Shown piece by piece: positions 42,214-43,332 of a DNA stretch of 64,000 nucleotides. The notes below the pieces were generated by a model. That model saw only the letters and a list, made by a program, of their open reading frames with translations, was not told the origin of the DNA and did no database searches. Every line of letters begins with the position of its first letter. The stretch's first letter is position 1. The position numbers and the translations under genes were made by a program. The DNA comes from Escherichia coli. GTDB lineage: Bacteria > Pseudomonadota > Gammaproteobacteria > Enterobacterales > Enterobacteriaceae. The stretch lies in NCBI RefSeq assembly GCF_009931435.1, contig NZ_CP043414.1, one strand, 5' to 3'.

Positions 42214-42420
42214 ATGCTTTGTGAGAAGGGCCGCGAAAGCGGCCCTTCAGATTATTGGCAAAGTGTGCGTTGTTCATGTCGGATGCGGCGTGAACGCCTT
42301 ATCCGACCTACAAGATCGTGCAAATTCAATATATTGCAGGAAGTATGTAAGCCTGATAAGCGTAGCGCATCAGGCAGTTTTGCCTTTGCCATCAGTCTCA
42401 AGGGCCGCGAAAGCGGCCCT
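42214..42420. repeat. REP/BIME cluster bounded by a duplicated 18-bp hairpin
   Basis: GGGCCGCGAAAGCGGCCC occurs at 42228-42245 and 42402-42419 flanking REP units; the second copy is followed by a T-run. Confidence 0.6.
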
Positions 42421-42423
42421 TTT

Positions 42424-43332
42424 TTACTTAGTAGAGATAAACGGAACTGTACTGCCGGGGATCATGGTATCGGGTAGCTTACCGTCCCAACGCTCAGCAG
42501 TGGTGAGGGCAACAAGTCCGGGATTATCCCGCAGAGCTTCACCGCGCAGGCGGATCGCTTCTGCTTCAGCCGCACTTTTTAAACGAATAGTTTCAGCCTC
42601 TGCCGCGCCTCTTACGCGAATAGTCTCAGCTTCTGCTTTGGCTGCCGCCAGTTTACTGTCTGCTTCTGCCTGGGCCTGAGTTACCGCTATTTGCGCCTGG
42701 ATTTTCTCTGTTTCCAGATTTTGCTTACGTGTGGCAATGGCGACTTCTGCTTTCATTCGATCTTCAATCGATTTTTCATAAGCGTCAGAAAAATCAATAT
42801 TTTCAATCTGGACACCATCAATCACCACCGGGCCAACAACGGCTTTACGCATTGCATTTTGCAGATCCTGAACCAGTTTTGTACGATCCTGTACCGCGCT
42901 GATGGCGGTATATTGGCCGAAAACGTTCTCCAGTTGGGTTGGCAGCTGGCGGACGATCAGACGCTCTTTTAAAGATTCAATGGTGTTGTAGGTTGTATAA
43001 ACTGCGCCAGCTTCTGAAGGCTTAATATGAAAACTAACCGACACGGTCATTTGTGCCGGTTGCTGGTCGCGGCTGTAGGCCTGTAATCCCTGATAAACCA
43101 CAGCCTGATTACGCGTGGAAATTTTCTCTACGCTTTCCATAAAAGGGATCTTAAAACCCAGACCCGGCTCGGCAACTTTTACGATTTTTCCGTAGCGCAG
43201 CAAAATGCCGCGTTCACCTTCATTAACGGTGTAATACGAGAGAAATGGCAGCACAACCACGGTAAGCACGCCAATGGCGATAGCAATAGATTTTTGTGGG
43301 CGAAATGAGGTTATTGAAACAGGCGCTTTCAT
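42424..43332 (-). CDS. SPFH/band-7 (HflC/prohibitin-like) membrane protein (not a K-12 gene at this position, from memory)
   Basis: 302 aa; N-terminal TM (IAIAIGVLTVVVLPFL), then SPFH-like core and Ala/Glu-rich coiled-coil repeats (AEAETIRVRGAAEAETIRLKSAAEAEAIRLRGEA). Confidence 0.75.
   Translation of the reverse strand: MKAPVSITSFRPQKSIAIAIGVLTVVVLPFLSYYTVNEGERGILLRYGKIVKVAEPGLGFKIPFMESVEKISTRNQAVVYQGLQAYSRDQQPAQMTVSVSFHIKPSEAGAVYTTYNTIESLKERLIVRQLPTQLENVFGQYTAISAVQDRTKLVQDLQNAMRKAVVGPVVIDGVQIENIDFSDAYEKSIEDRMKAEVAIATRKQNLETEKIQAQIAVTQAQAEADSKLAAAKAEAETIRVRGAAEAETIRLKSAAEAEAIRLRGEALRDNPGLVALTTAERWDGKLPDTMIPGSTVPFISTK

What the first reader, a model, noticed from the sequence alone, without database searches (positions are those of the whole stretch)
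42214..42426. REP cluster embedded between two copies of the tktA terminator hairpin
The 18-bp palindrome GGGCCGCGAAAGCGGCCC occurs twice about 170 bp apart flanking REP units; only the distal copy is followed by a T-run. This looks like a terminator hairpin duplicated on REP/BIME insertion, so tktA transcripts would carry the REPs in their 3' UTR.
Basis: seen in the sequence. Interest (0 to 1): 0.3.

Follow-up and report, generated by a model that had tools for sequence, protein, structure and literature searches.

The report
BIME insertion that duplicated a terminator
A 152-bp mobile REP element (a BIME-1) sits just after the transketolase gene between two copies of that gene's terminator hairpin. 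The same hairpin-element-hairpin scar recurs at many other sites, which gives a rare clue to how these abundant bacterial repeats insert.

Summary
A 22-bp direct repeat, AAGGGCCGCGAAAGCGGCCCTT, lies at 42226-42247 and 42400-42421. It brackets a complete 152-bp BIME-1 (y REP, L linker with an IHF-like site, inverted z REP), and only the distal copy keeps a T-run.

Other E. coli genomes carry the same tkt/prohibitin junction with exactly one hairpin and no BIME (409 genomes). Some carry three hairpins and two BIME units in tandem.

The pattern is general. Five loci, including a second one in this window (fbaA-mscS), have empty sites holding a single hairpin. Among 53 independent BIME-1 sites in Escherichia and Pseudocitrobacter, 15 have an abutting, locus-specific hairpin repeat of 16-30 nt. 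About five more do under looser criteria. At two loci the filled state is clearly the derived one.

The best reading is that BIME-1 inserts at palindromic terminators and duplicates the whole hairpin, so the duplication is set by structure rather than by a fixed length. The inferred mechanism is staggered breaks at the two feet of the palindrome followed by fill-in.

tktA transcripts probably read through to the distal hairpin; this was not tested.

The parts
40214..42205 (+). tkt (tktA) transketolase gene; stop codon TAA at 42203-42205
   Evidence: ORF list. RefSeq annotation of the 99.3%-identical locus in E. coli R32_14_1F, mapped onto the window.
42226..42247 (+). Proximal copy of the duplicated hairpin (AA-GGGCCGC-GAAA-GCGGCCC-TT). 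It is followed by TTCAGATT, so it has no T-run.
   Evidence: Not called terminator-like.
42248..42399 (+). Complete BIME-1 element (CAGA...TCTC, 152 bp), made of left arm, y REP, L linker, z REP and right arm
   Evidence: 89.6% identical over 153 nt to the fepA-entD BIME-1 of K-12-type genomes. The boundaries are shared by dozens of copies.
42278..42311 (+). y-type REP (GTCGGATGCGGCGTGAACGCCTTATCCGACCTAC), ending in CTAC
   Evidence: Sequence; inverted repeat I2.
42312..42354 (+). L linker, with an IHF-consensus-like site ATTCAATATATTG at 42324-42336
   Evidence: Rfam ES036 hit above its gathering score. WATCAANNNNTTR with one mismatch (this scan is not specific on its own).
42347..42375 (+). 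z-type REP in inverted orientation (GTAA-GCCTGATAAGCGTAGCGCATCAGGC)
   Evidence: Sequence; inverted repeats I3 and I7.
42400..42425 (+). Distal copy of the hairpin (42400-42421) with its T-run (42420-42425). This is the predicted functional intrinsic terminator of tkt.
   Evidence: the only terminator-like site called here.
42424..43332 (-). Convergent prohibitin-family protein gene. Its stop codon overlaps the T-run.
   Evidence: ORF list; RefSeq annotation of orthologous loci.
56031..56068 (+). Second example in the window: proximal copy of the fbaA terminator (hairpin GGCCCGCTCTGCGGGTC, T7, CGCCAAAAGCAA)
   Evidence: It is identical to the single copy in empty-site genomes.
56069..56199 (-). 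Second BIME-1 (fbaA-mscS intergenic), in the opposite orientation, about 11 nt short at one end
   Evidence: Rfam ES036 hit at 56094-56136; L-motif match; alignment to the reference element covering positions 0-141.
56200..56235 (+). Distal, diverged copy of the fbaA terminator (AGCCCCGCTCTGCGGATC, T6, CACCATAAGCAAGG)
   Evidence: About 1700 E. coli genomes lack the 167-bp unit.

Best explanation
A complete BIME-1 (a REP doublet or REPIN-type non-autonomous element: left arm, y REP, IHF-site linker, inverted z REP, right arm; 152 bp) inserted at the intrinsic terminator downstream of tkt. The insertion was accompanied by a direct duplication of the whole terminator stem-loop (22 bp). The element now lies between stem and T-run: hairpin, BIME-1, hairpin plus T-run.

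SHOWN: the duplication; the element's identity and boundaries; the existence of one-hairpin empty alleles; and recurrence of the same architecture at many independent sites, with hairpins that differ in sequence and length from site to site (16-36 nt).

INFERRED (about 0.4): the duplicated length is set by structure rather than by a fixed stagger. This suggests the target palindrome is broken on the two strands at its two feet, as a hairpin-foot or cruciform-junction-specific nuclease or transposase would do. The element is joined between the breaks, and repair synthesis copies the two single-stranded palindromic overhangs. Formally this resembles duplication of a CRISPR repeat during spacer integration.

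INFERRED: the 22-bp repeats later support unequal recombination or slippage. That would give the precise losses (one-hairpin alleles) and tandem gains (three hairpins and two BIMEs) seen among strains.

INFERRED: the proximal hairpin lost its U-tract, so tkt transcripts mostly end at the distal copy and carry the BIME-1 in a highly structured 3' UTR.
For: The 22-bp direct repeat is exact and non-random.

Allele series at the same locus: 1 hairpin with 0 BIME, 2 hairpins with 1 BIME, and 3 hairpins with 2 BIMEs. The empty allele is present in 409 genomes out of 1813 with the tkt/prohibitin arrangement. A contiguous tandem junction was seen in L002 and H154.

The inner 152 bp is a repeated element with conserved ends, and its flanks differ between loci.

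Four further loci have empty sites holding exactly one hairpin:
- yqjF-yqjG (filled in 88 of 5425 genomes)
- fbaA-mscS, inside this window
- ysgA-metE (filled in E. albertii)
- pitA-uspB

Survey results: 25 of 78 copies have a flanking-repeat score of at least 14, against 0.5% for mismatched flank pairs. Of 53 independent sites, 15 have abutting hairpin repeats under strict criteria. The copies are in direct orientation. At 36 of 53 sites a hairpin of -10 kcal/mol or stronger abuts at least one end, against 11% of control windows taken 70 nt further out.

Only the distal copy scores as a terminator. The 3' UTR folds at -106 kcal/mol, z = -8.8.
Against: At the tkt locus itself polarity is not resolved. 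E. whittamii also has the filled state with a diverged distal hairpin (L088), so the E. coli one-hairpin alleles may be secondary deletions.

About 60% of surveyed BIME-1 sites lack a recognisable flanking repeat. Examples are fepA-entD and many sites with a hairpin on one side only. The signature is therefore either not universal or decays.

No enzyme is identified. The in-vitro cleavage sites reported for E. coli TnpA(REP) lie beside the REPs or in linkers at C|T (PMC3333891), not at the element's outer ends. The target junctions are not uniformly C|T; at yqjF-yqjG the junction is G|T.

IS200/IS605-type Y1 transposases make no target duplications (PMC2817692).

The transcript 3' ends were not measured.
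Confidence: 0.8

Rival explanations
1. The two-hairpin state arose by replication template switching (FoSTeS/MMBIR-like) and not by an enzyme-made staggered break. The nascent strand copied the hairpin, jumped to a BIME-1 elsewhere, and returned upstream of the hairpin, which it then copied a second time.
For: Hairpins and long quasi-palindromes are known replication obstacles (general knowledge). At fbaA-mscS the junction shows similarity between the target (CGCCAAAAGCAA) and the BIME end (TTGCCTTTGCCA in reverse complement), and the duplication extends beyond the hairpin to 36 nt. One site (pitA-uspB in E. albertii) has an inverted loop, TAAA versus TTTA, which is a template-switch-like signature.
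Against: In at least 15 independent sites the repeat ends within 0-2 nt of the stem feet, and the element ends are the same (CAGA...TCTC). Random microhomology-guided switches should give variable ends. Loops are in direct orientation wherever they are asymmetric.
Confidence: 0.2
2. At the tkt locus the filled (two-hairpin) state is ancestral to the Escherichia lineages that carry the prohibitin gene. On this view the one-hairpin alleles are secondary precise deletions between the 22-bp repeats, so they are not true pre-insertion sites.
For: E. whittamii has the orthologous filled locus with a diverged distal hairpin (L088). The BIME at this locus differs by about 7% between E. coli lineages (H43-H46), so it is old. 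Empty alleles occur on different tkt 3'-end haplotypes. A tandem two-unit allele shows that the repeats do recombine.
Against: This changes only the polarity at this one locus. It still requires an original duplication of the hairpin, and derived insertions with the same architecture are documented at yqjF-yqjG and ysgA-metE.
Confidence: 0.4
3. The flanking hairpins are part of the mobile element itself, or the two hairpins are independent look-alike terminators that arose by chance or convergence.
For: GC-rich GNRA-loop hairpins are common terminator stems (general knowledge).
Against: The hairpin sequence differs at every locus while the element stays constant. Empty sites retain the hairpin without the element. 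A 22/22 identity was never reached in shuffles, and mismatched flank pairs reach a score of at least 14 in only 0.5% of cases.
Confidence: 0.02

Closest known systems
BIME-1 / RIP / RIB elements of E. coli (y REP, L linker with IHF site, z REP), also describable as REPINs
   Same: Same sequence family: 89.6% identity to the K-12 fepA-entD copy. It has the same parts and size, an intergenic location at the 3' ends of genes, and presence/absence polymorphism between strains. That polymorphism is already reported (PMC1187871 citing Bachellier 1997).
   Different: The readable literature describes no target duplication and states that REPs lack MITE signatures (PMC3184786). It also states that the dissemination mechanism is unknown (PMC3333891; PMC8266576). 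Here the element is bracketed by a duplicated, locus-specific terminator hairpin. BIME-1 is described as single-copy per locus, but hairpin-plus-BIME-1 units occur in tandem in some strains.
MITEs and DDE-transposon insertions with target-site duplications
   Same: A short non-autonomous element with imperfect terminal inverted repeats, flanked by a direct duplication of target DNA. Empty sites contain one copy.
   Different: The duplication length is not fixed. It is 16-36 nt and follows the length of the local stem-loop, so it is far longer than the 2-14 bp usual for DDE enzymes. The target is a structure (a GC-rich palindrome with A and T runs), not a sequence.
CRISPR repeat duplication during spacer integration (Cas1-Cas2, with IHF in type I-E)
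   Same: In outcome only: an inserted segment ends up between two copies of a ~20-30-bp partly palindromic sequence, because the two strands are attacked at opposite ends of it and the gaps are filled (general knowledge).
   Different: No CRISPR array or leader is involved. The insert is a 152-bp repeat element rather than a 33-bp spacer, and the IHF site is in the insert rather than the target. No test of Cas involvement was possible. This is an analogy of geometry, not a membership claim.
Mobile elements that home to terminators or REPs (group II introns inserting after intrinsic terminators; IS1397/ISKpn1 and IS110-family elements inserting into REPs)
   Same: Preference for GC-rich hairpins in intergenic DNA, which minimises damage to genes (general knowledge; PMC1525189 listed).
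   Different: Those elements do not duplicate the entire hairpin. Here the REP element is the insert, not the target.

Membership tests
BIME-1 (RIP/RIB) | One y-type REP and one z-type REP in inverted orientation | tested here: met
   y REP at 42278-42311 and z REP at 42347-42375; inverted repeats I2, I3 and I7. Whether the z unit is z1 or z2 in the Bachellier nomenclature was not determined, because the figures with the consensus sequences are not held.
BIME-1 (RIP/RIB) | Long conserved L linker carrying an IHF site between the two REPs | tested here: met
   43-nt linker matching Rfam ES036 above its gathering score. ATTCAATATATTG matches WATCAANNNNTTR with one mismatch. IHF binding itself is not testable here.
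BIME-1 (RIP/RIB) | Full-length similarity, including the outer arms, to recognised BIME-1 copies | tested here: met
   89.6% identity over 153 of 156 nt to the fepA-entD copy in K-12-type genomes.
BIME-1 (RIP/RIB) | Occurs as a single unit per locus (PMC3333891) | tested here: met
   One unit in the window. Strain PCP07014 has two units in tandem at this locus, and arrays of up to 5 exist in Escherichia sp. MOD1-EC7003 (L102).
REPIN mobilised by a RAYT / TnpA(REP) | REP doublet able to fold as one long hairpin | tested here: met
   Arms 42226-42263 and 42384-42421 are 79% complementary. RNA fold is -106 kcal/mol, z = -8.8.
REPIN mobilised by a RAYT / TnpA(REP) | Cognate RAYT gene in the genome, and RAYT-dependent movement | not testable with these tools
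   The window does not cover the yafM region and no mobility assay is possible. The published in-vitro cleavage sites (C|T next to REPs or in linkers) do not coincide with the element's outer ends.
MITE with transposase-defined target-site duplication | Target duplication of fixed length | tested here: not met
   Flanking repeats range from 16 to 30 nt in the survey and reach 36 nt at fbaA-mscS. They track the local stem-loop.
Intrinsic (Rho-independent) terminator | GC-rich stem-loop immediately followed by a T-run | tested here: met
   The distal copy at 42400-42421 plus TTTTTT is called terminator-like. The proximal copy is not, because it is followed by TTCAGATT. Termination in vivo was not tested.

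The most novel reading that the evidence does not exclude
BIME-1/REPIN elements integrate by a dedicated structure-specific reaction. It recognises extruded terminator palindromes, breaks the two strands at the two feet of the hairpin, and so duplicates the entire stem-loop. This would be a 'structure-defined target-site duplication', a class of insertion signature not described for bacterial repeats. It would give the long-missing footprint for REP dissemination and point to the enzyme responsible (RAYT acting on both strands, a junction resolvase, or an integrase-like activity).
Probability: 0.35. Interest if true: 0.8.

Novelty: new variant of a known kind. Interest (0 to 1): 0.6.

Why it matters
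REP/BIME/REPIN elements are among the most abundant repeats in enterobacterial genomes. After 40 years, the papers I could read still say their mode of spread is unknown and that they leave no transposon-like footprint.

A recurrent footprint with verified empty sites would change that. Here the footprint is the whole terminator hairpin duplicated around the element. It identifies the preferred target (palindromic, often bidirectional terminators), constrains the chemistry (breaks at both feet of the palindrome), and can be tested directly with defined target plasmids and mutants.

It also has functional consequences. Each insertion separates a terminator stem from its U-tract and rebuilds a terminator about 174 nt downstream. 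This adds a highly structured REP- and IHF-site-containing 3' UTR to genes such as tkt, fbaA and pitA. It also creates repeats that let the unit be lost or amplified between strains.

Tried and rejected
1. Hairpins as part of the element: rejected. Hairpins differ at every locus, and empty sites keep them.

2. Inverted (fold-back) duplication of the hairpin: rejected as the general rule. Asymmetric loops (GAAA, TTTC, CAAG, CCAAAA, TTCG) are identical in both copies. Only pitA-uspB in E. albertii shows an inverted loop.

3. Tying the junctions to the C|T cleavage preference of TnpA(REP): inconclusive to negative. The tkt junctions are CC|T, but yqjF-yqjG is G|T and L043 is CCC|CAGA.

4. Exact count of tandem (two-unit) alleles: not obtained. 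The junction query gave 179 records, but the tool sometimes joins two pieces from single-unit genomes (H153), so 179 is only an upper bound.

5. Literature: seven full-text searches and the readable REP/BIME/REPIN papers gave no description of hairpin or terminator duplication. Bachellier et al. 1997 (Genetics) and Boccard & Prentki 1993 could not be opened. Bachellier et al. 1994 and 1999 were not attempted, as they are subscription papers without PMC ids. Prior description cannot be excluded.

6. The Rfam naRNA4 (REP325-derived) hits over the REPs are below the gathering score and were not pursued.

7. The IHF consensus scan is not specific in this window (63 matches against 51.5 expected). 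It is used only as supporting evidence.

Full report
**1. The observation**

GGGCCGCGAAAGCGGCCC occurs exactly twice in the window, at 42228-42245 and 42402-42419. None of 100 dinucleotide-preserving shuffles gave two matches. The repeat extends to 22 bp, AAGGGCCGCGAAAGCGGCCCTT, at 42226-42247 and 42400-42421, with a spacing of 174 bp. The loop (GAAA) has the same orientation in both copies, so these are direct repeats.

The tkt stop codon is at 42203-42205. A convergent gene at 42424-43332 on the minus strand is annotated as a prohibitin-family protein in near-identical E. coli records. The proximal hairpin is followed by TTCAGATT and the distal one by TTTTTT. Only the distal copy is called terminator-like.

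**2. What lies between the hairpins**

The 152 bp at 42248-42399 are not a loose REP cluster. They form one complete BIME-1 with these parts:
- a left arm
- a y REP (42278-42311)
- a 43-nt L linker that matches Rfam ES036 above its gathering score and contains an IHF-consensus-like site
- an inverted z REP (42347-42375)
- a right arm complementary to the left one (I1)

In E. coli genomes that lack this locus, the best match to the inner 156 nt is the BIME-1 between fepA and entD, at 89.6% identity over 153 nt including both arms. The element therefore has defined ends (CAGA...TCTC), and the hairpins lie exactly outside them.

**3. Orthologous loci**

About one third of 5426 complete E. coli genomes (1813) have the tkt/prohibitin arrangement. 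K-12-type genomes diverge immediately after the tkt stop codon. They lack the prohibitin gene and use a different terminator, AAAAAGGTCGCTTCGGCGACCTTTTTT.

Among the tkt/prohibitin genomes there is an allele series:
- one hairpin plus T-run and no BIME (KKo009, O6:H16, FDAARGOS_1259)
- two hairpins and one BIME (the window, R32_14_1F, LF82)
- three hairpins and two BIME units in tandem (PCP07014)

A junction-specific query finds the one-hairpin allele in 409 genomes. The tandem junction is contiguous in at least L002 and H154, with an upper bound of 179 records. The two hairpins are one sequence duplicated, together with presence of the 174-bp unit.

Polarity at this locus alone is open. E. 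whittamii has the filled state, and its distal hairpin has diverged by compensatory stem changes (AAGAGCCGCAAACGCGGCTCTT, L088). B2 strains have a changed proximal loop. The insertion is therefore old, and some one-hairpin alleles may be precise secondary losses.

**4. The pattern is general**

Other BIME-1 copies were examined next.
- The copy between yqjF and yqjG in strain SCU-301 is flanked by AAACGAGGAG-loop-CTCCTCGTT on both sides, with the T-run after the distal copy. Only 88 of 5425 genomes have this insertion. K-12 and DA33137 have one hairpin, AACGAGGAGGAAGCTCCTCGTTTTT.
- The window holds a second BIME-1 between fbaA and mscS (about 56069-56199, minus strand). It is flanked by two diverged copies of the fbaA terminator. 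About 1700 genomes lack the 167-bp unit and have a single copy identical to the proximal one. Here the repeat is 36 nt and includes the T-run.

A scan of one genome per species with an L-linker pattern returned about 75 copies in Escherichia and Pseudocitrobacter. Of 78 distinct copies, 25 have a flanking direct-repeat score of at least 14, against 0.5% for mismatched left and right flanks.

After collapsing orthologues there are 53 independent sites. Fifteen have abutting repeats under strict criteria, and about five more under looser ones. The repeats share these properties:
- They start within 0-2 nt of the element ends.
- They are GC-rich stem-loops of 16-30 nt.
- They differ at every site.
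- They are in direct orientation.
- They are usually followed by a T-run only distally.

At 36 of 53 sites a strong hairpin abuts at least one end, against 11% of control windows 70 nt further out.

Two survey sites were checked against E. coli:
- ysgA-metE is filled in E. albertii. The best E. coli match and every listed full-length hit are empty, with one hairpin.
- pitA-uspB has both alleles in E. coli, and the empty allele has one hairpin.

Five loci thus have verified one-hairpin empty sites, and at two of them the filled state is clearly derived.

**5. Mechanism**

Shown: BIME-1 insertion is associated with direct duplication of a whole local stem-loop, and the duplicated length follows the structure.

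Inferred: the two strands of the target are broken at opposite feet of the palindrome. This is equivalent to cutting an extruded cruciform at its junction, or to cutting each strand at the same position relative to its own hairpin. The element is joined between the breaks, and the two single-stranded palindromic overhangs are filled in. The geometry is that of CRISPR repeat duplication during spacer integration, but that is only an analogy.

I could not link the breaks to TnpA(REP). Its published in-vitro sites are C|T next to REPs or in linkers. Target junctions are not uniformly C|T, and Y1 transposases of this type are not known to make duplications.

A replication template-switch origin is a weaker rival. 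It explains the 36-nt fbaA case and one inverted loop. It does not explain the regular coincidence of repeat ends with stem feet.

Once formed, the 22-bp repeats around a quasi-palindrome can account for the precise losses and tandem gains seen among strains. Arrays of up to five units occur in L102.

**6. Function at tkt**

The proximal hairpin has lost its U-tract, and the distal one retains it. tkt transcripts therefore most likely end near 42425 and carry the BIME-1. The 227-nt 3' region folds at -106 kcal/mol, z = -8.8. For the convergent prohibitin gene the hairpin is not followed by a U-tract in either allele. None of this was measured.

**7. Comparison with what is known, and novelty**

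The element is an ordinary member of BIME-1, and presence/absence polymorphism of BIME-1 is known. I did not find the hairpin-duplication footprint in any readable source:
- Ton-Hoang 2012 discusses integration models without it.
- Delihas 2011 says REPs lack MITE signatures.
- Searches combining REP/BIME/REPIN with terminator, duplication or target site found nothing relevant.

Three look-ups failed, and the others are not held. I therefore rate this a new variant of a known kind, with moderate-to-high interest that depends on priority being confirmed.

Noticed in passing
window 56031-56235: A second BIME-1 in the same window, between fbaA and mscS, is also bracketed by two copies of the upstream gene's terminator. 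The repeat here is 36 nt and includes the T-run, and the distal copy has diverged at 5 positions. About 1700 E. coli genomes have the empty site.
   Followed up: yes
window 42206 onward, compared with L005 2007-2320: K-12-type E. coli genomes diverge from the window immediately after the tkt stop codon. They have no prohibitin-family gene, a different tkt terminator (GGTCGCTTCGGCGACC plus T-run) and about 310 bp of AT-rich DNA before cmtB. The tkt-cmtB interval is therefore a presence/absence region for a whole gene.
   Followed up: partly
L011 about 1175-1385, compared with L012 and L122: In the rare yqjF-yqjG insertion allele, both hairpin copies have 5-nt loops (GAACA and AAACG) that differ from each other and from the 4-nt loop (GAAG) of empty sites. 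Across sites, differences between the two copies concentrate in loops or are compensatory in stems (L017, L088). This could reflect selection for pairing or processing of the loop during insertion. It remains unexplained.
   Followed up: partly
L018, L096 and L123 (pitA-uspB): The proximal hairpin copy has an inverted loop in E. albertii (TAAA versus TTTA). In E. coli and Escherichia sp. MOD1-EC7003 its loop is deleted by 4 nt. The distal copy equals the empty-site sequence in all of them.
   Followed up: partly
L102 (five units, period 162), L098, L101 and L107 (periods 115/230), L002 (period 174): Tandem arrays of BIME-1-like units, some including the local hairpin, exist in several Escherichia genomes. 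BIME-1 is described in the literature as single-copy per locus.
   Followed up: no
L007 about 2140-2150 (strain AH19E004): A 12-bp deletion within the L linker/z-REP border of the tkt BIME-1 (GGAAGTATGTAG missing) in an ST-type that otherwise resembles LF82.
   Followed up: no
L004 3282-3979 and L006 2332-3029: IS1 copies inserted next to, or into, the prohibitin-family gene in some empty-site strains. In FDAARGOS_1259 the gene is truncated.
   Followed up: no
window 41700-42900 and 55800-56450: The window is only about 95-97% identical to most E. coli in tkt and fbaA-mscS, but 99.3% identical to strain R32_14_1F (goat). It appears to come from a divergent E. coli lineage, or from a locally recombinant region.
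   Followed up: no
window 42223-42308 and 42350-42406 (minus strand): Sub-threshold Rfam matches to naRNA4 (a REP325-derived nucleoid-associated RNA) over the two REPs plus the adjacent hairpins. They probably reflect generic REP similarity.
   Followed up: no
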